A DNA stretch of 12,570 nt, taken from the IMG/VR virus record IMGVR_UViG_2513237361_000007, positions 1 to 12,570 of that record; one strand, written 5' to 3'. Position 1 is the first letter of the stretch, and each line of letters begins with the position of its first letter. This document shows, piece by piece, positions 1-9,949 of this stretch. The stretch is from a virus. Lineage: Duplodnaviria > Heunggongvirae > Uroviricota > Caudoviricetes. The position numbers were made by a program, and so were the translations under genes. The notes beneath the pieces were generated by a model. The model searched no databases. It saw only the letters and a program-made list of their open reading frames with translations, and was not told where the DNA came from.

Positions 1-108
1 TTACTTCCGCTTATTCAGCCAGCTCACGATCAGGCTGGCGAGAATGCCAGCAATGACCGGAGCCGCTAAATCGTGCCAGAAGGCCATGCCTAACTGCGCG
101 AGCGTCAT
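1..108 (-). CDS. Ldr-family type I toxin peptide, 35 aa (MTLAQLGMAFWHDLAAPVIAGILASLIVSWLNKRK)
   Basis: Hand translation of the minus strand: ATG at 108-106, stop at 3-1. The peptide closely resembles E. coli Ldr toxins (LdrD-like FWHDLAAP...NKRK) as I recall them; single hydrophobic helix with basic C-terminus. Too short for the ORF track. Confidence 0.5.
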   Translation of the reverse strand: MTLAQLGMAFWHDLAAPVIAGILASLIVSWLNKRK

Positions 109-149
109 ATAGCCGCCTGTGTTGTAATGACAACGTTTCGCGGCTATTC

Positions 150-494
150 TTGAATGGGCTAGAGTCCAGATATGTCATTCAGCGAGGAGCTAATGCCAAT
201 GGTGCATGGATACGCTGGTCAGATGGTGCAATAGAAGTATTTGGAACCGGTGGATCTAATGATAATGGACTGGCTAAAGTTGTTTACCCAATTGCACTGC
301 CTAAACTTTCACGTTTTATCAGTATCGCGGAAAGAATAAGAACGGATTACGAGAGCACACCTAATAATGTTCACGTTTCAATGATCGTGGATGATCAGGT
401 AACAAATACCGGCTTTTATGCCCGCTGCCAGATGTACGACGGCAGACCATCATCAAATGCTTTTTCCTGGAGGGTTTATTGTGCGCCTGTTTAA
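150..494 (+). pseudogene. Tail-fibre C-terminal cassette fragment, 5'-truncated
   Basis: ORF begins at TTG and the frame stays open back to position 57 with no ATG. It lacks the conserved PWP...CNG...AYP motif seen at the start of the opposite cassette. Position and orientation mirror the alternative cassette; assignment is by context, not recognised homology. Confidence 0.4.
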
Positions 495-678
495 TCCAGT
501 TACTTTGACTGAAGTAATCCCCGGTCTTCATGACGTGACCGGGGCTATTGAATTACCGGAGGACAACTGGTTTTTTACTATGACAGAAATTCCTCAGGGC
601 ATGGAGCTAACAATTAATGAGAAAGGCGAACCAATACTAATTGAGGTTAATCAGTCTCAGGGAATACAGGCCAAATAA
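481..678 (+). CDS. Hypothetical 66-aa protein, possibly a truncated alternative tail-fibre assembly/chaperone gene
   Basis: GTG at 481 lies 6 nt after GGAGG (470-474) and overlaps the stop of the upstream cassette, suggesting coupling. No conserved Tfa C-terminal domain; the 3' end overlaps the convergent tfa gene. Confidence 0.3.
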   Translation: MRLFNPVTLTEVIPGLHDVTGAIELPEDNWFFTMTEIPQGMELTINEKGEPILIEVNQSQGIQAK

Positions 679-1255
679 TATCAGGCGCGGTGCTGGTATC
701 TGTTGCCGTCACTGCGTCAATGTAATTCAGCACCGTGTTAAGTCGGTTGGTTTCTGCCTGCGTCAGACTCCGTCCGGCCTGTAATTTCAGTTGAATCAGA
801 TTGATGGAAGCCATTGCAGTATCCATCAGCGACTGGCGCTGTGCTTCTGCTGCATCTACTGCGGCGCTATGCTGTGCCTCGGTATCCGTCACCCATTTCT
901 CACCATTCCATTTATCGTATGGCGTTAACGGGGCGATAGTGGTTGTATTATCAGGGTAATCCCCCGGAGCTGTGATTTCTTTTGATTCTCCCGTTTCGGT
1001 GTTATAGACAACTTCACCGCGATGGTCTGGCACATATTCCCATGAGTTAAAATCTGCCGAACGGCAGATTGCATAACCAGCCTTATGTGTGCCAGGAGCA
1101 TCTAAACAGGAATATGCGGGGATACCGACACCCACAGCAAGATATTCAATTGATGCAGAAATATACTCCCGTGTCTCACTGTCATAGTTATAAACGGTAA
1201 TCTCTCCTGCCTTTGTGGCAATAAATTTATTATTTAAGATGGCGTTATACATCAT
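647..1255 (-). CDS. Tail fibre assembly protein (lambda Tfa / Mu U-like chaperone)
   Basis: 202-aa ORF whose C-terminus (…NRLNTVLNYIDAVTATDTSTAPDIIWPVFPE) matches the conserved Tfa C-terminal domain. Its start overlaps the stop of the upstream fibre cassette. Confidence 0.8.
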   Translation of the reverse strand: MMYNAILNNKFIATKAGEITVYNYDSETREYISASIEYLAVGVGIPAYSCLDAPGTHKAGYAICRSADFNSWEYVPDHRGEVVYNTETGESKEITAPGDYPDNTTTIAPLTPYDKWNGEKWVTDTEAQHSAAVDAAEAQRQSLMDTAMASINLIQLKLQAGRSLTQAETNRLNTVLNYIDAVTATDTSTAPDIIWPVFPETD

Positions 1256-1830
1256 GCAGCCCTCACAATGTAATTAAATGAAATATTACGTGGGCGTGTC
1301 TCTGCTGCACCGACAATACTGGTACTCAACCCCGTTGCCGTTCGTTTGTTATTTTTATTTCCTTCAATCAAACAGTTGTAATCATCATTACCAATTAACG
1401 AATTGGTGGCATCAATACTGTCCGGGGACAAGGCATTAGTTGTGGAACTTAAAGTCAGCATCTCGTCTGAACTTGGAAGATTTTTTAATGGTGTTTCATT
1501 GCGTGAAATACCCGCATAAAAAAAGGACTCATGCCTGTGAGCTTCAAAAGAGTCATCCTGAAGACTTAGCAAGGCTCGCCCCGCATCCACTCCACGTCCA
1601 TCATCCCAGCCACGAATAAATTCACCGCGTAAATCAGGCAATTTATTGGTCGGGTAAGCCTTTGCCAGTTCCGGGTATTCTTCAGCAGAAAAAGCCGCAC
1701 CATTGCATTTCAGCCAGCCTGTTGGCGGAGTGGCTGAAGGCCACGGAACAGGCACCCCAACCGGTAATGCAGAGCCTTCTCCCAAACCAACGTTTAAGAA
1801 AATGCAGCGATTACGACTAACTGGCATCAT
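1252..1830 (-). CDS. Tail-fibre variable C-terminal cassette, lacking the constant N-terminal part of the fibre gene
   Basis: N-terminal region carries the motif PVGVPVPWPSATPPTGWLKCNGAAFSAEEYPELAKAYP typical of the variable region of P2 H / Mu S fibres. Only 192 aa, with the crossover site inside codons 10-18, so the annotated Met is probably not a real start. Confidence 0.7.
   Translation of the reverse strand: MMPVSRNRCIFLNVGLGEGSALPVGVPVPWPSATPPTGWLKCNGAAFSAEEYPELAKAYPTNKLPDLRGEFIRGWDDGRGVDAGRALLSLQDDSFEAHRHESFFYAGISRNETPLKNLPSSDEMLTLSSTTNALSPDSIDATNSLIGNDDYNCLIEGNKNNKRTATGLSTSIVGAAETRPRNISFNYIVRAA
1777..1802. other. Putative hix/gix/cix-like inversion crossover site (TTCTCCCAAACCAACGTTTAAGAAAA)
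   Basis: 26-bp 12-2-12 element with AAACC-AA-CGTTT centre, resembling Hin/Gin sites as recalled (e.g. TTCTTGAAAACCAAGGTTTTTGATAA). Sits at the 5' end of the fibre cassette about 55 bp from the invertase start, where gixR/hixR-type sites lie. Confidence 0.5.
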
Positions 1831-1857
1831 CCCCGATTTTTATTCAAGGAGATGATC

Positions 1858-2424
1858 ATGCTTATTGGTTATGTACGCGTGTCAACAAATGACCAGAACA
1901 CCGATTTGCAACGTAATGCACTGAATTGCGCGGGATGTGAGCGGATTTTTGAGGACAAAATCAGTGGCACTAAGTCCGACAGACCGGGGCTTAAAAAACT
2001 GCTTAGGACACTATCGGCAGGAGACACTCTGGTTGTCTGGAAGCTGGACAGGTTGGGGCGCAGTATGCGGCATCTTGTTACGCTGATAGAAGAGTTGCGC
2101 CAGCGTGGTGTGAATTTCCGAAGCCTGACTGACAGTATTGATACCAGCACCCCAATGGGCCGTTTCTTTTTTCATGTCATGGGTGCCCTGGCTGAAATGG
2201 AACGCGAACTGATAGTTGAACGTACCAGGGCGGGGATTGCTGCAGCTCGCGACAAAGGCAGAGTAGGTGGACGCCGTCCTAAGTTGACCAGCGAACAGTG
2301 GGCACAGATTGGGCGTTTACTCGAGGCCGGAGAATCAAGACAGCGTATTGCACTGATTTTTGATGTGGGCGTTTCTACCATTTATCGAAAATTTCCGGCA
2401 AATAAGAGCAATGAATCTCCCTGA
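1858..2424 (+). CDS. Serine DNA invertase (Pin/Gin/Hin/Cin family)
   Basis: N-terminus MLIGYVRVSTNDQNTDLQRNAL... with catalytic Ser in YVRVSTNDQ and a C-terminal HTH, very close to E. coli PinE as recalled. Start placed at ATG 1858 (AAGGAG at 1846-1851, 6-nt spacer) rather than ATG 1852. Confidence 0.9.
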   Translation: MLIGYVRVSTNDQNTDLQRNALNCAGCERIFEDKISGTKSDRPGLKKLLRTLSAGDTLVVWKLDRLGRSMRHLVTLIEELRQRGVNFRSLTDSIDTSTPMGRFFFHVMGALAEMERELIVERTRAGIAAARDKGRVGGRRPKLTSEQWAQIGRLLEAGESRQRIALIFDVGVSTIYRKFPANKSNESP

Positions 2425-2472
2425 ATCAGCTTTATTTTGATTATCCCTGAAAGCAGATAAATACCGTCATTT

Positions 2473-2490
2473 TGTGTGAATAACGGTACA
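2473..2490 (+). promoter_or_regulatory. Candidate Ogr-dependent late promoter element (TGT-N12-ACA) upstream of FI
   Basis: TGTGTGAATAACGGTACA fits the TGT-N12-ACA dyad described for P2/P4 late promoters, about 75 bp upstream of the FI start. No transcript start can be determined from sequence. Confidence 0.35.
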
Positions 2491-2566
2491 ACTGCGCTTA
2501 GCTGTTTGTCAGGCACAATCACTTCAACATAGGGCGAAGCCTAATCCAATCAGGAGGTTCGCCACT

Positions 2567-3740
2567 ATGGCTCAGGATTACCACCACGGGGTGCGCGTTG
2601 TTGAAGTCAACGAAGGCACCCGATCCATTACCACGGTGAGCACCGCCATCGTGGGTATGGTCTGCACGGGCGATGATGCCGATGCAAAAATGTTTCCTCT
2701 TAATAAACCCGTGCTGATCACTGATGTGCTGACTGCCAGCGGTAAAGCGGGTGAGTCCGGCACACTGGCCCGTTCGCTGGACGCCATTGCTGACCAGGCA
2801 AAACCCGTGACCGTTGTTGTGCGTGTACCGCAGGGTGAAACGGAAGAAGAAACCACGACCAATATCATCGGAGCAGTGACCGCTGAAGGTAAAAAAACAA
2901 GGCATGAAAGCCCTGTTATCTGCCCAGTCACTGCTCGGCGTTAAACCGCGCATTCTCGGCGTGCCAGGCCACGACACCAAGGCGGTAGCTACTGAGTTGC
3001 TGAGCGTGGCGCAAAGCCTGCGTGGGTTTGCTTACCTGTCAGCGTATGGCTGCAAGACAGTGCAGGAGGCGATCGCTTACCGTGAAAACTTCAGCCAGCG
3101 CGAAGGAATGCTGATCTGGCCCGACTTTACTGGCTGGGACACGGTGCTGAATGCCGAAGCAACGGCATATGCCACCGCCCGTGCGCTTGGTCTGCGTGCC
3201 AAAATTGATGAGCAGACTGGGTGGCACAAAAGCCTGTCCAACGTGGGCGTGAACGGTGTCACCGGAATTTCTGCAGATGTGTTCTGGGATCTGCAGGACC
3301 CGGCAACCGATGCAGGTCTGCTGAACCAGAACGACGTCACCACGCTTGTGCGTAAAGACGGTTTCCGCTTCTGGGGTTCCCGCTGCCTGAGTGATGACCC
3401 GCTCTTTGCCTTCGAAAACTACACCCGCACGGCGCAGGTGCTGACGGACACAATGGCAGAAGCGCACATGTGGGCAGTGGACAAACCGCTGAACCCGTCG
3501 CTGGCGCGCGACATTATCGAGGGCATCCGCGCCAAAATGCGCAGCCTGGTCAGTCAGGGGTATCTCATTGGTGGTGATTGCTGGCTGGACGAGTCGGTGA
3601 ACGACAAAGACACGCTGAAAGCCGGAAAACTCACCATCGACTACGACTACACGCCAGTGCCGCCACTTGAAAACCTGATGTTGCGTCAGCGCATCACCGA
3701 TCAGTACCTGGTGAATTTCGCCACCCAGGTCAGCGCGTAA
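2567..3740 (+). pseudogene. FI: Tail sheath protein FI, disrupted by a +1 frameshift in an A7 tract (2891-2897)
   Basis: ORF 2567-2944 encodes the FI N-terminus ([19 protein letters not shown]...) and ORF 2904-3740 the rest (…[11 protein letters not shown]…[24 protein letters not shown]), in different frames. Removing one A gives continuous ...[29 protein letters not shown]..., collinear with P2 FI as recalled. Confidence 0.85.
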
Positions 3741-3749
3741 GGGGACAAC

Positions 3750-4265
3750 ATGGCTTTACCACGCAAATTAAAACACCTGAACCTGTTTAACGACGGGAAC
3801 AACTGGCAGGGGATCGTTGAGTCGCTGACGCTGCCGAAATTCACCCGCAAATATGAGAAGTATCGCGGCGGCGGAATGCCGGGGGCAGTGGATGTGGATC
3901 TGGGGCTTGATGACAGTGCGCTGGACACAGAATTTTCCATTGGTGGTACTGAACTGCTGCTGTTTAAGCAGATGGGCAAAGCCACGGTGGATGGCATCCA
4001 GTTGCGCTTTACCGGCTCTATCCAGCGTGACGATACCGGGGAAGTGCAGGCCGTGGAGCTTGTGGTGCGTGGACGTCACAAAGAAGTGGATTCCGGTGAG
4101 TGGAAGACGGGCGAAAGCAACACCACCAAAGTGACCAGTACCAACAGCTACGCGAAGCTGACCATCAATGGTGAGGTGCTCTATGAAGTGGACCTTATCA
4201 ACATGGTGGAAATTGTGGACGGTGTGGACCTGATGGAAGCGCACCGCAACGCCCTCGGCCTCTGA
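3750..4265 (+). CDS. FII: Tail tube protein FII
   Basis: 171 aa; MALPRKLKHLNLF...GSIQRDDTGEV...NMVEIVDGVD resembles P2 gpFII and sits immediately after FI. Confidence 0.9.
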   Translation: MALPRKLKHLNLFNDGNNWQGIVESLTLPKFTRKYEKYRGGGMPGAVDVDLGLDDSALDTEFSIGGTELLLFKQMGKATVDGIQLRFTGSIQRDDTGEVQAVELVVRGRHKEVDSGEWKTGESNTTKVTSTNSYAKLTINGEVLYEVDLINMVEIVDGVDLMEAHRNALGL

Positions 4266-4319
4266 TGTATCTGAACGGCGCGGAATGCCGCGCCAGAACC
4301 TAATTTACAGGACAACAAA

Positions 4320-4622
4320 ATGAGCGATAAGCAGACTGAAAAGACCATTCAACTGGATACCCCTATCAAGCGCGGTAAAACAGAAATTACCGAAATTGTG
4401 CTGCGTAAACCGCAGTCCGGTGCGCTGCGCGGTACACGCCTGCAGGCCATTATGGATATGGATGTGAACGCGATGATGACCGTGATCCCCCGCATCTCCA
4501 GTCCGGCACTGACTGCACAGGAAATTGCAGAGATGGACCCGGCAGATCTCACTGCCATGTCGGTTGAGGTTGTCACTTTTTTGTTGAAGAAGTCGGTGCT
4601 TACCGGTTTACCGACAGCCTGA
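4320..4622 (+). CDS. E: Tail assembly chaperone E
   Basis: 100-aa ORF between FII and T containing the slippery heptamer; position and size as in the P2 FETUD operon. Confidence 0.85.
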   Translation: MSDKQTEKTIQLDTPIKRGKTEITEIVLRKPQSGALRGTRLQAIMDMDVNAMMTVIPRISSPALTAQEIAEMDPADLTAMSVEVVTFLLKKSVLTGLPTA

Positions 4623-4756
4623 CGGTTGACGATCTGGTGGCTGATATCGCCACCATCTTTCACTGGCCGCCATCCGTTACTGACGTTATGCCGCTGACCG
4701 AAGTGCTGGAATGGCGGTATAAAGCGATTCAGAGAAGCGGGGCCAACGATGAGTGA
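4320..4756 (+). CDS. E': E+E' extended chaperone made by -1 programmed frameshift at 4577-4583
   Basis: After a -1 slip at T_TTT_TTG the -1 frame stays open for 58 codons (…VEEVGAYRFTDSLTVDDLVADIATIFHWPPSVTDVMPLTEVLEWRYKAIQRSGANDE) to TGA 4754-4756, overlapping the T start at 4749. Confidence 0.7.
4577..4583 (+). other. Slippery heptamer TTTTTTG for the E/E' -1 frameshift
   Basis: In-frame as T TTT TTG (codons ACT TTT TTG); same heptamer reported for P2 E/E'. Confidence 0.7.
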
Positions 4757-7700
4757 TAATAACCTGCGCCTGCAGGTCATTCTTAATGCGGTTGACAAAC
4801 TCACCCGCCCATTCCGTGCTGCACAGGCCAGTTCGAAAGAGCTGGCTGGCGCAATTCAGAATACCCGAAACAGCCTCAAAGAATTGAATAAGCAGGCTGG
4901 CAGAATTGATGAATTTCGCAAGACGCGCTCGCAACTAGCCATAACAGCCAACAACCTGAACGCAGCCCGCGAAGAGGCGGCAAAACTCGCCACACAATTT
5001 GCTGCCACTAACAGGCCAACCGCCGCGCAGGCAAAGTTATTCAGTCAGGCCAAAACACGAGTACAGGAACTTCAGCAGACCTATAACGGCTTGTTGGGGG
5101 CGGTCCAGAGACAACGTCAGGCACTTAAAGAATCAGGGATTGATACCAGACAACTCAGTAGTGCCCAGCGAGAACTTAAGAAAAATGCTGAAGAAACAAG
5201 GCAGGCACTGGAGGGCCAGCAAAAAGCACTTAAACGTCTGGGTGAGCAACAGGCACGGATGAACGCTGCCAGAGAACAATACTCAAGACGGCTTGAAGTG
5301 CGCGATCGCATCGCAGGAGCCGGAGCCACTACCACGGCTGCAGGGCTGGCAATGGGTGCGCCAGTGATGGCGGCAGTAAAAAGCTATACCAGCATGGAAG
5401 ATGCCATGAAAGGTGTGGCAAAGCAGGTCAATGGTCTGCGTGACGATAATGGCAACCGCACTGCACGTTTTTATGAAATGCAGGATGCCATCAAGGCTGC
5501 CAGCGAACAGTTGCCGATGGAAAACGGTGCGGTGGACTTCGCTGCACTGGTTGAAGGTGGTGCGCGCATGAACGTCGCAAACCCTGACGACAGCTGGGAA
5601 GACCAGAAACGTGACCTGCTGGCCTTCGCCAGTACGGCAGCAAAGGCGGCAACAGCCTTTGAGCTGCCAGCGGATGAACTGTCAGAAAGTCTGGGGAAAA
5701 TCGCCCAGCTCTACAAAATACCTACCCGCAATATTGAACAGCTCGGCGATGCGCTGAACTATCTGGATGATAACGCCATGTCGAAAGGGGCGGACATCAT
5801 TGATGTGATGCAACGTCTGGGCGGTGTGGCTGACCGTCTGGATTATCGTAAAGCGGCGGCACTGGGTTCCACCTTTCTGACACTGGGTGCTGCGCCGGAG
5901 GTTGCAGCCAGTGCAGCAAACGCGATGGTGCGTGAATTGTCCATTGCCACCATGCAAAGCAAGAGTTTCTTTGAAGGGATGAATCTGCTGAAACTCAATC
6001 CTGAAGTGATTGAAAAGCAGATGACGAAGGATGCGATGGGAACTATCCAGCGTGTGCTGGAGAAGGTGAACGCACTGCCGCAGGACAATCGTCTGTCTGC
6101 CATGACCATGTTGTTTGGTAAAGAGTTTGGTGATGATGCAGCGAAACTGGCAAACAACCTTCCGGAACTGCAGCGCCAGCTAAAACTGACAGCGGACAAT
6201 GATGCGCTCGGTTCCATGCAGAAAGAATCCGACATCAACAAAGACTCACTTTCCGCTCAGTGGTTGCTGGTCAAAACTGGAGCGCAGAACACCTTCAGCA
6301 GCCTGGGCGAAACGCTGCGCCAGCCGCTGATGGATATTCTGTACACGGTGAAAAGCATTACGGGGGCGTTGCGCCGCTGGGTGGAAGCTAACCCGGAACT
6401 GACAGGCACACTGATGAAAGTAGCGGCTGTTGTGGCTGCGGTTACCGTAGGCCTCGGCACCTTAGCGGTGGCGCTGGCTGCAGTGCTGGGGCCGCTGGCA
6501 GTGATCCGTCTGGGATTCTCTGTGCTGGGTATCAAAACGTTACCTTCCGTTACGGCAGCAGTAACTCGAACCAGCAACGCGTTGTCCTGGCTGGCTGGCG
6601 CTCCACTGGCACTGCTGCGACGCGGGCTTGCTTCATCGGGCAACGCCGCAGGTTTACTTACTGCGCCGTTGTCGTCTTTGCGCCGCACGGCATCACTGAC
6701 GGGAAATGTCCTGAAAACTGTAGCAGGTGCGCCAGTTGCACTTTTGCGGTCTGGATTATCCGGTTTACGTGCTGTTGCTGTGATGTTTATGAATCCTCTG
6801 GCGGTACTGCGCGGTGGACTGGCAGCCGCAGGCGCGGTGCTGCGAGTGCTTGCATCTGGTCCGCTGGCGATGCTGCGCGTTGCCCTGTATGCCATATCTG
6901 GTCTGTTAGGTGCTCTGCTCAGTCCGATAGGTCTTGTGGTTACTGCACTGGCGGGCGTGGCGCTGGTTGTCTGGAAATACTGGCAACCCATTACCGCATT
7001 TCTCGGTGGCGTGGTGGAAGGATTCAAAGCGGCGGCAGGTCCCATCAGTGCAGCGTTTGAACCACTTAAGCCCGTGTTCCAGTGGATTGGCGACAAAGTG
7101 CAGGCGCTGTGGGGCTGGTTTACTGATCTGCTGACGCCTGTTAAGTCGACCTCTGCCGAACTGCAGAGCGCAGCGGCAATGGGGCGACGATTCGGGGAGG
7201 CACTGGCGGAAGGGCTGAATATGGTCATGCATCCGCTGGACTCCCTGAAATCCGGTGTTTCCTGGTTGCTGGATAAACTCGGCATTGTCAGTAAAGAGGC
7301 TGCAAAGGCGAAACTGCCGGAAAGCGTGACGCGTCAGCAACCTGCGACGGTGAATGCAGACGGTAAAGTGATGATGCCATCGGGTGGTTTTCCGTCATGG
7401 GGATATGGCTTTGCGGGGATGTATGACAGCGGCGGCTATATCCCGCGCGGGCAGTTTGGCATCGTCGGTGAAAACGGGCCGGAAATTGTCAACGGCCCGG
7501 CAAACGTGACCAGCCGGAGAAATACCGCTGCACTGGCTGCGGTTGTTGCCGGAATGATGGGCGTTGCTGCCGCGCCTGCAGAGCTTCCACCGTTACATCC
7601 TTTGGCACTTCCCGCGAAAGGCGGCGAAGCGATGGTGAGTCGTGCAGCCACTGTGCCGCCCGTTCAACGGCTTGAGGCACCGACGCAGATCATCATTCAG

Positions 7701-7826
7701 ACGCAGCCAGGACAAAGTGCGCAGGATATTGCGCGGGAGGTTGCACGCCAGCTTGATGAACGTGAACGCAGGCTGAAGGCAAAAGCCAGGAGTAACTACA
7801 GCGATCAGGGGGGATACGAAGCATGA
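4749..7826 (+). CDS. T: Tail tape measure protein T
   Basis: 1025-aa ORF with coiled-coil-like N-terminal half, a hydrophobic repeat-containing middle and a glycine-rich C-terminus; follows E/E' and overlaps U (ATGA at 7823-7826). Confidence 0.9.
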   Translation: MSDNNLRLQVILNAVDKLTRPFRAAQASSKELAGAIQNTRNSLKELNKQAGRIDEFRKTRSQLAITANNLNAAREEAAKLATQFAATNRPTAAQAKLFSQAKTRVQELQQTYNGLLGAVQRQRQALKESGIDTRQLSSAQRELKKNAEETRQALEGQQKALKRLGEQQARMNAAREQYSRRLEVRDRIAGAGATTTAAGLAMGAPVMAAVKSYTSMEDAMKGVAKQVNGLRDDNGNRTARFYEMQDAIKAASEQLPMENGAVDFAALVEGGARMNVANPDDSWEDQKRDLLAFASTAAKAATAFELPADELSESLGKIAQLYKIPTRNIEQLGDALNYLDDNAMSKGADIIDVMQRLGGVADRLDYRKAAALGSTFLTLGAAPEVAASAANAMVRELSIATMQSKSFFEGMNLLKLNPEVIEKQMTKDAMGTIQRVLEKVNALPQDNRLSAMTMLFGKEFGDDAAKLANNLPELQRQLKLTADNDALGSMQKESDINKDSLSAQWLLVKTGAQNTFSSLGETLRQPLMDILYTVKSITGALRRWVEANPELTGTLMKVAAVVAAVTVGLGTLAVALAAVLGPLAVIRLGFSVLGIKTLPSVTAAVTRTSNALSWLAGAPLALLRRGLASSGNAAGLLTAPLSSLRRTASLTGNVLKTVAGAPVALLRSGLSGLRAVAVMFMNPLAVLRGGLAAAGAVLRVLASGPLAMLRVALYAISGLLGALLSPIGLVVTALAGVALVVWKYWQPITAFLGGVVEGFKAAAGPISAAFEPLKPVFQWIGDKVQALWGWFTDLLTPVKSTSAELQSAAAMGRRFGEALAEGLNMVMHPLDSLKSGVSWLLDKLGIVSKEAAKAKLPESVTRQQPATVNADGKVMMPSGGFPSWGYGFAGMYDSGGYIPRGQFGIVGENGPEIVNGPANVTSRRNTAALAAVVAGMMGVAAAPAELPPLHPLALPAKGGEAMVSRAATVPPVQRLEAPTQIIIQTQPGQSAQDIAREVARQLDERERRLKAKARSNYSDQGGYEA
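6603..6890 (+). repeat. Five degenerate tandem repeats of about 63-66 bp inside T, encoding P(L/V)AxLRxGL-type segments
   Basis: Related units begin near 6603, 6666, 6733, 6795 and 6861 (e.g. CCACTGGCACTGCTGCGACGCGGGCTT, CCAGTTGCACTTTTGCGGTCTGGATTA, CCTCTGGCGGTACTGCGCGGTGGACTG, CCGCTGGCGATGCTGCGCGTTGCCCTG). Confidence 0.5.
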
Positions 7827-8308
7827 TGATGGTGCTGGGATTGTACGTGTTTATGCTGCGCACCGTGCCGTATCAGGAGCTGCAGTATCAACGCAGCTGG
7901 CGACATGCGGCAAACAGCCGGGTAAACCGACGTCCGTCCACGCAGTTTCTGGGACCGGACAACGACATGCTGACGCTTTCCGGTGTTCTTATGCCGGAGA
8001 TAACAGGTGGCAGGCTGTCGTTGCTGGCACTGGAGCAGATGGCAGAACAGGGGAAAGCATGGCCCCTGATTGAAGGCAGCGGCACGATTTATGGCATGTA
8101 TGTGATTGAGGGACTGAATCAGACTAAAACGGAGTTTTTCCGCGACGGTATGCCGCGCCGGATTGAGTTCACCCTGTCGCTCAAAAGGGTGGATGAATCA
8201 TTGTCCGATATGTTCGGTGATCTCAGTGCGCAACTGAATAATCTGCAGGACACGGCAACGTCTGCCTTAAGCGATATCAGTAAAACGGTGGGAGGGCTGC
8301 TGTCGTGA
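7823..8308 (+). CDS. U: Tail protein U
   Basis: 161 aa; MMMVLGLYVFMLRTVPYQELQYQRSWRH...FRDGMPRRIEFTLSLKRVDE is near-collinear with P2 gpU as recalled. Confidence 0.9.
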   Translation: MMMVLGLYVFMLRTVPYQELQYQRSWRHAANSRVNRRPSTQFLGPDNDMLTLSGVLMPEITGGRLSLLALEQMAEQGKAWPLIEGSGTIYGMYVIEGLNQTKTEFFRDGMPRRIEFTLSLKRVDESLSDMFGDLSAQLNNLQDTATSALSDISKTVGGLLS

Positions 8309-9405
8309 ATTTCAGCTCTGAACTGCTTAACAAAGGCAACAAAACTCCCGCATTCAGCATCAGTATTGAGGGCAGGGATATCACCACTGTGCTGGATAAC
8401 CGCCTGATGAGTCTGACGCTGACGGATAACCGGGGCTTTGAAGCGGACCAGCTTGATCTGGAGCTGGACGACGCCGATGGAAAAATAGCGCTGCCGCGCC
8501 GTGGTGCGGTCATTACGCTGGCGCTGGGCTGGAAGGGGCAGCCGCTTTTCCCGAAAGGGGCATTCACGGTGGACGAGATTGAACACACTGGCGCACCGGA
8601 CCGCCTGACTATCCGGGCGCGAAGTGCTGATTTTCGGGAAACGCTGAATACCCGCCGTGAAAAGTCGTGGCACAAGACCACTGTCGGGGAAGTGGTGAAG
8701 GAAATAGCTGTGCGGCACAAACTGAAGATGGCACTGGGTAAAGACCTGTCAGATAAACCCGTGGAACATATAGACCAGACTAATGAGAGTGACGGCAGTT
8801 TTCTGATGCGGCTGGCGCGCCAGTACGGTGCTATTGCGTCGGTGAAAAATGGCAATCTGTTATTCATCCGGCAGGGACAGGGTAAAAGCGCCAGCGGTAA
8901 ACCACTACCGGTTATCACTATCACACGTAAGGACGGCGACAGTCACCGCTTTACCCTGGCAGATCGCGGAGCCTACACGGGCGTAATTGCCAGCTGGTTG
9001 CATACCCGCGAACCCGCGAAGAAAGAAAGCACCACGGTGAAGCGTAAGCGCAGGACTAAGAAGCAGAAGAAAGAGCCGGAAGCGAAGCAGGGCGATTACC
9101 TGGTGGGTACAGATGAAAACGTGCTGGTACTTAATCGCACTTATGCCAACCGGAGCAACGCTGAACGGGCTGCGAAAATGCAGTGGGAACGCCTGCAACG
9201 CGGCGTTGCGTCATTCTCGCTACAACTGGCGGAAGGGCGGGCAGAACTCTATACGGAAATGCCAGTGAAAGTCAGTGGCTTTAAACAGCCGATAGATGAT
9301 GCGGAATGGACCATTACGACTCTGACACATACCGTCAGCCCGGATAATGGTTTTACGACCAGTCTGGAGCTTGAAGTGAGGATTGATGATTTCAAAATGG
9401 AATGA
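8305..9405 (+). CDS. D: Tail protein D (late control gene D family)
   Basis: 366-aa ORF after U with GTGA start/stop overlap; contains a Lys/Arg-rich low-complexity segment (KRKRRTKKQKKEPEAKQ). Confidence 0.85.
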   Translation: MNFSSELLNKGNKTPAFSISIEGRDITTVLDNRLMSLTLTDNRGFEADQLDLELDDADGKIALPRRGAVITLALGWKGQPLFPKGAFTVDEIEHTGAPDRLTIRARSADFRETLNTRREKSWHKTTVGEVVKEIAVRHKLKMALGKDLSDKPVEHIDQTNESDGSFLMRLARQYGAIASVKNGNLLFIRQGQGKSASGKPLPVITITRKDGDSHRFTLADRGAYTGVIASWLHTREPAKKESTTVKRKRRTKKQKKEPEAKQGDYLVGTDENVLVLNRTYANRSNAERAAKMQWERLQRGVASFSLQLAEGRAELYTEMPVKVSGFKQPIDDAEWTITTLTHTVSPDNGFTTSLELEVRIDDFKME

Positions 9406-9495
9406 TTCTTCGCAATGGAGAACTTTTAAGTTTGCAAAATGGAATAATGCGGTATCATTATTGTGAATTTAGCAAAAATGGGGAGAACTCGAAAA

Positions 9496-9714
9496 ATGAT
9501 GATTTGCCCACTGTGTGGAAGTGCCGCCCATACTCGCAGCAGTTTTCAGGTATCTTCATTGACCAAAGAGCGTTACAACCAGTGCCAGAACATTAACTGC
9601 AGCCATACTTTTGTTACCCATGAAACTTTTGTTCGTTCGATTGCAACGCCAAAAGAGTCAAATCCGGTTCAGCCGCATCCAATGAAATCAGGACAGGTGG
9701 CGCTCTCTCTTTGA
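9496..9714 (+). CDS. ogr: Ogr/Delta-family zinc-finger late transcription activator
   Basis: MMICPLCGSAAHTRSS...KERYNQCQNINCSHTF...RPHP with Cys4 CxxC...CxxxxC arrangement like P2 Ogr. Start at ATG 9496 (GGGGAG at 9480-9485) preferred over ATG 9463. Confidence 0.85.
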   Translation: MMICPLCGSAAHTRSSFQVSSLTKERYNQCQNINCSHTFVTHETFVRSIATPKESNPVQPHPMKSGQVALSL

Positions 9715-9800
9715 CTCTGCCGCCAATTTGTCGCCATCGTTAAAAAACACTGCTTCTAACATCATGATTTTAAAAGGCATAAATTTTAGGCAACAAAAAA

Positions 9801-9838
9801 CCCATCAACCTTGAACCTAAATGGCGGGGTTGATGGGC
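9801..9838 (-). terminator. Rho-independent terminator downstream of ybjL
   Basis: Inverted repeat CCCATCAACC (9801-9810) / GGTTGATGGG (9828-9837); on the minus strand the hairpin is followed by TTTTTTGTTG (complement of 9791-9800). Confidence 0.6.
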
Positions 9839-9949
9839 TCCACAAAATGGGGACATCAAAGAAAAGCAGTGGCACTAATTAAGACTGATACCCTGAAGAA
9901 AAGTTCTGCGGTTGTACAAAAAAATTTCATTTTTAGGGCAACTTCAGTT

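What the first reader, a model, noticed from the sequence alone, without database searches (positions are those of the whole stretch)
150..2424. Tail-fibre inversion switch that appears locked: invertase, one crossover site and two opposed cassettes, but no constant fibre region or second site
The layout is that of a Gin/Pin/Hin host-range switch: cassette (+), small ORF (+), tfa (-), cassette (-), a 26-bp hix-like site at 1777-1802, then the invertase. I find only one site in the window, and the left cassette has lost its 5' part and any constant fibre region. Either the switch is locked and the intact invertase is kept for acting in trans on other prophage segments, or the partner site and fibre 5' part lie just left of the window.
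Basis: partly seen in the sequence, partly recalled or inferred. Interest (0 to 1): 0.6.

Follow-up and report, generated by a model that had tools for sequence, protein, structure and literature searches.

The report
Phage tail-fibre switch, apparently cut by misassembly
This is an ordinary Gin/Pin-type DNA-inversion switch that lets a P2-like prophage alternate between two tail-fibre tips; its "locked" look (second site and fibre body missing) most likely comes from two draft-assembly contigs being joined at the switch's own breakpoint.

Summary
The layout is real. It has cassette A (166-494, +), a 65-aa ORF, a tail-fibre assembly gene (tfa, -), cassette B (-), one 26-bp crossover site (1777-1802) and an intact invertase (1858-2424, 74% identical to Mu Gin). 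No second site exists in the window or in the 7.4 kb to its left.

The window comes from the 4.81-Mb single "contig" of Escherichia sp. TW09308 (E. marmotae). Left of base 166 lies the ldrD/bcs locus, which is 1.8-2.8 Mb from ybjL in four other E. marmotae assemblies.

Phage identity starts at the first base after the 15-bp inverted repeat. The inner half-site is missing, so the invertase did not make this junction. Independent draft contigs start at equivalent positions 167, 1776 and 1797. A cluster of 420 fibre proteins, of which all 15 members listed are partial, ends in or near this site.

Two near-clonal E. marmotae assemblies (1-3 SNPs in 16-18 kb) carry the same prophage. One has the complete fibre gene and left site. 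The other has the segment inverted.

Verdict: a canonical, probably active switch, already known. The "locked" state is most likely a contig-join artefact (about 0.8). A real recent truncation is not excluded (about 0.15).

The parts
1..108 (-). ldr type I toxin gene (35 aa), the bcsG-proximal copy of the ldrD-type LDR locus. It is chromosomal DNA, not part of the prophage.
   Evidence: Pfam Ldr_toxin, E = 3e-25. Bases 1-170 are 93% identical to E. coli ldr loci. The sequence is identical to E. marmotae HT073016 copy 1 through base 166. bcsG, bcsF and bcsE lie immediately to the left.
109..166 (.). ldr 5' region, ending at the junction. Only about the first 10 nt (157-166) of the rdlD antitoxin RNA gene remain.
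   Evidence: In the intact E. marmotae locus L018, rdlD maps 49-114 nt upstream of the ldr ATG, which equals window 157-222. Rfam finds no rdlD in the window.
165..167 (.). Junction between ldr-locus DNA and prophage DNA. C166 is common to both parents; T165 is ldr-specific and C167 is phage-specific.
   Evidence: Alignments A1, A3 and A4. BLAST identity to intact prophages starts at 166.
166..494 (+). Variable cassette A: the C-terminal 109 codons of the tail fibre. In intact prophages it is fused in frame to a 354-aa constant part, giving a 463-aa fibre.
   Evidence: 100% identical to E. coli NCTC8623 L001. P0135 shows the fusion ...LLTYLGLGE|ARYVIQRG.... Gp53-like_C and PHROG virion/tail-fibre hits.
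481..678 (+). 65-aa ORF downstream of cassette A. It may be a shortened assembly chaperone; its function was not tested.
   Evidence: Annotated as a hypothetical protein in all intact relatives. It matches positions 1-66 of the 145-position phrog_5400.
647..1255 (-). Tail-fibre assembly protein (tfa) that goes with cassette B.
   Evidence: Pfam Caudo_TAP, E = 1e-31. phrog_105 tail fibre assembly, E = 4e-97.
1252..1776 (-). Variable cassette B (collar-type fibre tip), here in the silent position next to the invertase. The ORF runs on to 1827/1830 through a short leader on the invertase side.
   Evidence: Pfam Collar, E = 2e-15. phrog_523 and phrog_3100. It is fused to the constant part in a 528-aa fibre in L003, L041 and P0137.
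1777..1802 (.). Right crossover site TTCTCCCAAACC-AA-CGTTTAAGAAAA. The core dinucleotide is at 1789-1790. The inverted repeat shared with the missing left site is 1776-1790.
   Evidence: In the two orientation isomers L001 and L003 the outer half-sites are exchanged exactly at the core.
1858..2424 (+). DNA invertase, 188 aa: a small serine recombinase with Ser9 and a C-terminal HTH.
   Evidence: Resolvase + HTH_7. Gin structures 3uj3 and 4m6f, E = 4e-93. 74% identical to Mu Gin and 98.9% to a P2-like phage invertase. phrog_125 DNA invertase.
2567..3740 (+). P2 FI-type tail sheath gene, split into 125-aa and 278-aa ORFs by one extra A at 2899. It marks the start of the tail gene block that continues to ogr.
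   Evidence: The extra A is absent from every relative compared, including the two near-clonal ones.
9779..9870 (-). Right prophage/chromosome boundary (about 9778/9779) and the RybB sRNA gene (9792-9870) that abuts it.
   Evidence: Identity to prophage-free E. marmotae loci starts at 9779. Rfam RybB, 106 bits.

Best explanation
Window 166-2424 is the invertible segment plus the invertase of a canonical Gin/Pin-family tail-fibre switch. It belongs to a P2-like prophage integrated beside rybB/ybjL in E. marmotae TW09308.

Mechanism (inferred from the family, not shown here): the serine invertase pairs two inverted 26-bp sites, cuts at the central AA/TT and rotates the strands. This fuses the 354-aa constant fibre part either to cassette A (with the 65-aa ORF) or to cassette B (with its tfa), changing host range.

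The missing left site and fibre body are most likely not a biological truncation. The deposited 4.81-Mb "contig" appears to abut two assembly contigs. One ends in the repeated ldr locus. The other starts at the first base inside the left inverted repeat, which is where assemblers break when a culture contains both orientations or the fibre constant region is repeated.

On this reading the real genome holds a complete, active switch.
For: 1. Identity of the element.
- Bases 166-2600 are 100% identical to an intact prophage of E. coli NCTC8623, and 166-8305 are 99.8% identical.
- The invertase is 74% identical to Mu Gin, with Ser9 and an HTH.
- Intact relatives have two sites flanking this same segment. 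The two isomers differ by exchange exactly at the core dinucleotide.
- Both junction types occur in complete E. coli genomes: 36 and 523 genomes.

2. Breakpoint.
- Phage identity starts at base 166, the first base after the 15-bp inverted repeat TTGGTTTGGGAGAAG.
- Independent draft contigs start at equivalent positions 167 (L043), 1776 (L044) and 1797 (L046).
- One 90%-identity cluster holds 420 fibre proteins. All 15 members listed are named 'partial', and the five partial members retrieved with lengths 347-355 aa end in or one residue past the site-encoded LL(T/A)YLGLGE.
- That cluster includes the E. coli W draft, whose finished genome has the intact junction.

3. Topology.
- In four E. marmotae assemblies the bcsG-ldr and ybjL loci lie 1.8-2.8 Mb apart, in the same relative orientation as in the window.
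- A real junction would therefore require deleting or transposing a megabase arc.

4. Near-clonal relatives.
- GCA_050991025.1 differs from the record by 3 SNPs and one indel over window-equivalent 166-17826, and has the complete 463-aa fibre and left site.
- GCA_013368845.2 differs by 1 SNP and the same indel over 1776-17826, and has the segment in the opposite orientation.

5. Source.
- The record is a single 4.81-Mb WGS contig of strain TW09308, whose genome literature attributes to Luo et al. 2011.
- From my own knowledge, short-read data of that date could not give such a contig without stitching.
Against: - I could not read the rest of the TW09308 record. The fibre constant region and left site were therefore not shown to exist elsewhere in that genome. 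An intact 463-aa fibre is not called on it.
- There are no Ns at the junction.
- The two parental sequences match at 7 of 10 positions around the junction (161-170). That hints at microhomology-mediated joining rather than blunt concatenation, although the perfect overlap is only 1 nt.
- The right site was assembled through without a break.
- On the ldr side the repeat-boundary argument is weak. In HT073016 the two ldr copies are identical for only 17 nt after the copy-specific patch.
- I could not obtain the assembly methods paper.
Confidence: 0.8

Rival explanations
1. The junction is real. A recent illegitimate (microhomology-type) rearrangement removed everything left of the invertible segment and joined it to the ldrD locus. 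That would leave a prophage remnant with one orphan site. The segment would be locked with cassette B silent and cassette A headless. The intact invertase could act only in trans on other Gin/Pin-type segments.
For: - This is how the sequence reads as deposited: no second site in the window or in the 7.4 kb upstream.
- No intact fibre gene with this constant part and cassette A is called on the record.
- Parental similarity is 7/10 around the junction.
- The sheath frameshift at 2899 is unique to this record and would fit a decaying remnant.
Against: - The breakpoint would coincide by chance, to the base, with the inner edge of the inverted repeat (about 1 in 1600 even within the segment). Assemblies demonstrably break there.
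- The junction has deletion topology across a 1.8-Mb arc. From my own knowledge of E. coli gene order, that arc contains oriC. A real junction would therefore need a rearrangement with at least three breakpoints.
- Near-clonal relatives carry the intact prophage.
- All the other tail genes are intact.
Confidence: 0.15
2. The invertase itself created the junction by recombining the left site with a secondary (quasi) site in the ldr locus. Such events have been described for Cin and Gin at quasi-sites.
For: The ldr sequence at the junction contains an inverted repeat, TTCTTGA...TCAAGAA, whose outer 7 nt resemble a hixL half-site. This is my reading; the hixL resemblance is from memory.
Against: - Serine invertases exchange at the central dinucleotide, so the inner half-site GGTTTGGGAGAA would stay attached to the segment. 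It is absent, and the break lies 13-14 nt inside the core.
- The ldr sequence scores below threshold in the half-site scan.
Confidence: 0.02

Closest known systems
Phage Mu G segment with Gin (also P1 C segment/Cin and e14 P segment/Pin)
   Same: - Small serine invertase: 74% identical to Gin, with the same catalytic Ser9 and C-terminal HTH.
- 26-bp sites of the same half-site architecture.
- Two opposed fibre C-terminal cassettes, each with a downstream ORF (a tfa for cassette B).
- The invertase gene lies just outside one site.
- The invertase gene's 5' region, where from memory the Fis enhancer lies in gin, is conserved with Mu gin.
   Different: - The host element is a P2-like prophage, not Mu, P1 or e14.
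- The segment is 1.6 kb, against 3 kb in Mu.
- The cassettes are unrelated in sequence to Mu S/U and S'/U'.
- In this record only one site is present.
Invertible tail-fibre segment of P2-like prophages at rybB/ybjL in E. coli and E. marmotae (NCTC8623, M8, W, GCA_050991025.1)
   Same: The prophage is the same to within 0-2 SNPs per 8-10 kb, at the same integration site, with the same invertase, cassettes and right site.
   Different: Those records have the 354-aa fibre constant part and the left site TTCTCACATACC-TT-GGTTTGGGAGAA. This record has ldr-locus DNA instead from base 165 leftwards.
Salmonella Hin/hix flagellar phase-variation switch
   Same: Same recombinase family and same site architecture (from knowledge; the hixC half-site consensus was used as the yardstick).
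   Different: Hin flips a promoter for flagellin genes. Here the inversion swaps coding 3' ends of a phage tail-fibre gene.

Membership tests
Gin/Hin/Pin/Cin DNA-invertase switch | Small serine recombinase with an N-terminal catalytic domain (active-site Ser9/10) and a C-terminal HTH | tested here: met
   Pfam Resolvase 7.5e-53 and HTH_7 4.8e-16. Aligns over residues 1-184 with the Gin crystal-structure sequences, E = 4e-93, with YVRVSTNDQ conserved.
Gin/Hin/Pin/Cin DNA-invertase switch | Close sequence relationship to a characterised invertase | tested here: met
   74% identical to Mu Gin by tblastn. phrog_125 DNA invertase, E = 3.5e-100.
Gin/Hin/Pin/Cin DNA-invertase switch | Two 26-bp crossover sites in inverted orientation flanking the segment | tested here: not met
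   Only one site (1777-1802) in the window and none in the 7.4 kb upstream. The feature is met in otherwise identical prophages L001, L002, L003 and L040. The failure is probably an assembly artefact.
Gin/Hin/Pin/Cin DNA-invertase switch | Exchange at an identical central dinucleotide, giving two orientation isomers | tested here: met
   In relatives only. L001 and L003 (same strain) carry the outer half-sites swapped at the AA/TT core. The near-clonal L040 and L045 are in opposite orientations. It cannot be assessed for TW09308 itself.
Gin/Hin/Pin/Cin DNA-invertase switch | Fis-dependent recombinational enhancer in the 5' part of the invertase gene | tested here: inconclusive
   The first 200 bp align with Mu gin, including an invariant run TCAACAAATGACCAGAA. 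I did not map Fis sites, and function cannot be tested here.
Gin/Hin/Pin/Cin DNA-invertase switch | Alternative tail-fibre C-termini, each followed by its own downstream gene, in opposed orientation inside the segment | tested here: met
   Cassette A with the 65-aa ORF (+) and cassette B with tfa (-). Both are fused to the same constant part in P0135 and P0137.
P2-like (Peduovirus-type) prophage | P2 late tail gene block FI-FII-E-T-U-D-ogr next to the fibre genes | tested here: met
   Pfam families Phage_sheath_1, Phage_tube, Phage_TAC_7, Phage_P2_GpE, PhageMin_Tail, Phage_P2_GpU, Phage_GPD and Ogr_Delta occur in that order. Head, lysis and baseplate genes are absent from this record's locus but present in relatives.
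Ldr/Rdl type I toxin-antitoxin locus (left flank) | Ldr toxin ORF with the cis-encoded rdl antisense RNA upstream | tested here: not met
   The toxin ORF is present. rdlD is not detected in the window. In the intact locus it maps to window-equivalent 157-222 and is cut by the junction.

The most novel reading that the evidence does not exclude
The junction is genuine. A P2-like prophage was cut to the base at the inner edge of its left inverted repeat during a multi-breakpoint chromosomal rearrangement that fused it to the ldrD locus. That would leave three orphans side by side: a functional Gin-type invertase with a single site, two headless fibre cassettes, and an Ldr toxin gene without its Rdl antitoxin. 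It would suggest that inversion-site edges are hot spots for illegitimate recombination.
Probability: 0.12. Interest if true: 0.35.

Novelty: already known. Interest (0 to 1): 0.1.

Why it matters
The biological interest is small. Gin/Pin-type fibre switches in P2-like prophages are common: the two fibre-cassette junction types were found in 36 and 523 of 5,426 complete E. coli genomes. This one is near-identical to many of them.

The practical lesson is for genome scans. An "orphan" inversion site in a draft or stitched assembly is more likely a sign that the segment was actively inverting, and so broke the assembly, than a sign that it is locked. Breakpoints that fall exactly on repeat edges and join distant loci should be treated as assembly joins until reads say otherwise.

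Tried and rejected
- **Second site in the window.** I searched for the 26-mer with up to 3 mismatches, the inner half-site with up to 2, generic inverted repeats, and a hix-consensus scan. Nothing credible turned up. The 34-nt inverted repeat I1 (14-47 / 1705-1738, 74% complementary) lies in ldr and cassette B and is a chance match.
- **Junction made by the invertase.** Rejected, because the inner half-site and core are absent.
- **Reaching the rest of the TW09308 record to find the fibre constant region or the reciprocal junction.**
  - The junction ORF is not a called gene.
  - The gpI cluster representative is not the exact sequence.
  - No fibre hit listed came from a 4,809,826-bp contig.
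  - The exact 463-aa fibre is not on that record.
- **The junction elsewhere.** An exact 25-mer was absent from the GTDB species representatives and the JGI metagenomes. This is uninformative, since TW09308 is not a species representative.
- **Assembly methods.** The Luo et al. 2011 paper is not in the library. Other papers gave only the strain and accession.
- **Repeat boundary on the ldr side.** Only weakly supported, so I did not rely on it.
- **Contig end of L031/L039.** It ends about 100 nt past the right site, which is not a clean site break, so I did not use it as evidence.
Full report
**1. Observation**

- ORF 150-494 (+) ends in a fibre-tip domain: a weak Gp53-like_C hit and a PHROG virion/tail-fibre hit.
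- ORF 481-678 (+) is a 65-aa protein matching the first 66 positions of the 145-position phrog_5400.
- 647-1255 (-) is a tail-fibre assembly protein (Caudo_TAP, E = 1e-31).
- 1252-1830 (-) is a collar-type fibre tip.
- 1858-2424 (+) is a small serine recombinase with Resolvase and HTH_7 domains.
- The 26-mer TTCTCCCAAACC-AA-CGTTTAAGAAAA at 1777-1802 occurs once, with none expected by chance.
- Against a hix half-site consensus it scores 17/24. Mu gixL and gixR score 18 in the same scan. Nothing else in the window scores above 15, and the single 15 also occurs in intact relatives inside the tape-measure gene.
- No second copy of the inner half-site exists within 2 mismatches.

**2. Source and surroundings**

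- An exact-protein look-up places the window on AEME01000001.1, a single 4,809,826-bp record of assembly GCA_000208565.2.
- The literature assigns this accession to Escherichia sp. TW09308, cryptic clade V, now E. marmotae.
- The chromosomal parts are about 92% identical to E. coli and 99.8-99.9% identical to E. marmotae assemblies.
- Bases 2567-9714 are the P2 late tail block: sheath, tube, E, tape measure, U, D and ogr.
- The prophage ends at about 9778. The RybB sRNA gene follows at 9792-9870, then ybjL, ybjM and grxA.
- Bases 1-108 (-) encode an Ldr type I toxin.
- Bases 1-166 are identical to the bcsG-proximal ldr copy of E. marmotae HT073016.
- The 7.4 kb to the left holds bcsG, bcsF, bcsE, bcsR, bcsQ and bcsA.
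- So no fibre constant region or partner site lies just left of the window in this record.

**3. What the element is in intact form**

- Bases 166-2600 are 100% identical to a P2-like prophage of E. coli NCTC8623, and 166-8305 are 99.8% identical.
- In that prophage, and in strains M8, W and 210221272, the same segment lies downstream of baseplate genes V, W, J and I and a fibre gene.
- The first 354 codons of that fibre gene are constant and end in the left site TTCTCACATACC-TT-GGTTTGGGAGAA.
- NCTC8623 carries two near-identical copies in opposite states. One fuses the constant part to cassette A (463 aa). The other fuses it to cassette B (528 aa).
- In the two states the outer half-sites TTCTCACATACC and TTTTCTTAAACG are exchanged exactly at the AA/TT core.
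- Across complete E. coli genomes the constant+cassette A junction occurs in 36 genomes. The constant+collar-cassette junction occurs in 523.
- The invertase aligns over residues 1-184 with the Gin structure sequences (E = 4e-93), with the catalytic serine in YVRVSTNDQ. It is 74% identical to Mu Gin and 98.9% to the invertase of a P2-like phage record.
- Its 5' 200 bp, where from knowledge the Fis enhancer of gin, hin and cin lies, aligns with Mu gin and includes an invariant 17-nt run. I did not map Fis sites.

The mechanism is therefore the textbook one, inferred from family membership. The invertase synapses two inverted sites, makes 2-nt staggered cuts at the core and rotates the strands. 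This swaps which cassette is fused to the fibre body.

**4. Anatomy of the left junction**

- ldr locus: ...TTCTTGAATGGGCTAGAGTC|AAGAATGGCCCCC.
- Intact phage: ...ACCTTGGTTTGGGAGAAG|CCAGATATGTC.
- Window...TTCTTGAATGGGCTAGAGTCCAGATATGTC.
- T165 is ldr-specific, C167 is phage-specific and C166 is shared.
- The phage part therefore begins at the first base after the 15-bp inverted repeat TTGGTTTGGGAGAAG.
- The core and inner half-site are gone. A serine recombinase exchanges at the core and would have left the inner half-site attached, so the invertase did not make this junction.
- The junction also cuts the rdlD antitoxin gene, which would occupy 157-222.

**5. Real truncation or assembly join?**

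Four lines of evidence favour a join.

(a) Assemblies break here.
- Looking up the window's tape-measure protein returned independent draft contigs whose first base corresponds to window 167 (GCA_026547865.1), 1776 (a metagenome scaffold) and 1797 (GCA_032402915.1). These are the edges of the two sites.
- One 90%-identity cluster contains 420 fibre proteins. All 15 members listed are named 'partial'. The partial members retrieved with lengths 347-355 aa end in or one residue past the site-encoded LL(T/A)YLGLGE.
- One of these comes from the E. coli W draft, whose finished genome has the intact junction.

(b) Topology.
- In four E. marmotae assemblies that carry both loci on one sequence, bcsG-ldr and ybjL lie 1.8-2.8 Mb apart, in the same relative orientation as in the window.
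- The junction therefore has deletion topology over a megabase arc. By E. coli gene order (my knowledge) that arc contains oriC.
- A viable real genome would need a rearrangement with at least three breakpoints.

(c) Near-clonal relatives.
- GCA_050991025.1 matches the TW09308 record from window-equivalent 166 to 17826 with 3 SNPs and one indel. It carries the full prophage with the 463-aa fibre and left site.
- GCA_013368845.2 matches from 1776 to 17826 with 1 SNP and the same indel. Its contig starts 40 nt inside cassette A, in the inverted orientation next to the invertase-side half-site.
- So the same prophage in the same lineage is complete and has inverted.

(d) The record.
- It is a 4.81-Mb single WGS contig of a genome that literature attributes to Luo et al. 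2011. From my own knowledge, the short-read data of that date could not yield such a contig without stitching.
- I could not obtain the methods.

The only indel against these relatives is an extra A at 2899, which splits the sheath gene. The truncated product is found on no other contig in the collection. That fits a sequencing error as well as a recent mutation.

**6. Points in favour of a real junction**

- There are no Ns at the junction.
- The parental sequences match at 7 of 10 positions across it, though the perfect overlap is only 1 nt.
- The right site is assembled through without a break.
- I could not show that the fibre constant region exists elsewhere in TW09308. The exact 463-aa fibre is not called on the record, and other parts of the record were out of reach.
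- The ldr-side argument is weak, because in HT073016 the ldr copies stay identical for only 17 nt beyond the copy-specific patch.

I put the join artefact at about 0.8, a real recent truncation at about 0.15, and invertase-mediated secondary-site recombination at about 0.02.

**7. Comparison with known systems, and verdict**

- The element works like the Mu G/Gin, P1 C/Cin and e14 P/Pin systems.
- It passes every membership feature that could be tested, except "two sites" in this record. That feature is met in otherwise identical prophages.
- It is one of many near-identical P2-like prophages at rybB/ybjL.
- Nothing about it is new. The one unusual claim, a locked switch, most likely reflects the assembly.
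- Interest is low. The useful outcome is the caution that orphan inversion sites in stitched drafts usually mark active switches.

Noticed in passing
window 1-222 (ldr 1-108, junction 166): As deposited, the Ldr toxin gene has lost its rdlD antisense antitoxin and its upstream region. In the intact E. marmotae locus, rdlD maps to window-equivalent 157-222. Relatives carry 1-3 tandem ldr copies between bcsG and yhjV.
   Followed up: partly
window 9779-9870: The RybB sRNA gene (106 bits) lies 13 nt from the right prophage boundary. The P2-like phage therefore appears to integrate at the 3' end of rybB. Most E. marmotae genomes have this site empty, and one (L014) carries a different P2-like prophage with an acyltransferase gene instead of the invertase.
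   Followed up: partly
window 2899 (sheath gene 2567-3740): A single extra A (CAAGG instead of CAGG) splits the tail sheath gene into 125-aa and 278-aa ORFs. It is absent from all relatives, including two near-clonal ones. The 125-aa product is found on no other contig in the collection. It is either a sequencing error or a very recent mutation.
   Followed up: yes
L001 and L003 (E. coli NCTC8623, NZ_LR134234.1, 4929264-4943400 and 9894-22128): This complete-genome record holds two near-identical copies of the prophage tail region about 24 kb apart, across the record origin. The fibre switch is in opposite orientations in the two copies, and one copy has many frameshifted genes. It looks like an assembly duplication caused by inversion heterogeneity rather than two prophages.
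   Followed up: no
window 481-678: The 65-aa ORF after cassette A matches only the N-terminal half of a 145-position PHROG family of unknown function, and it overlaps the 3' end of the opposing tfa. The same short form is present in all intact relatives. Other prophages (L005) have a 146-aa assembly protein after a gp53-like cassette.
   Followed up: partly
window 147-171 and the equivalent in intact ldr loci: The ldr upstream region contains a 7-bp inverted repeat, TTCTTGA...(11 nt)...TCAAGAA, whose outer bases resemble a hixL half-site. The junction falls in its right arm. This is probably coincidence or part of ldr/rdl regulation.
   Followed up: no
window 1803-1830: The silent cassette next to the invertase always gains an ATG-initiated leader (MMPVSRNRCI...) from the invertase-side flank. 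Annotators therefore call it a 191-aa 'phage tail protein' in every genome. Whether it is expressed is unknown.
   Followed up: no
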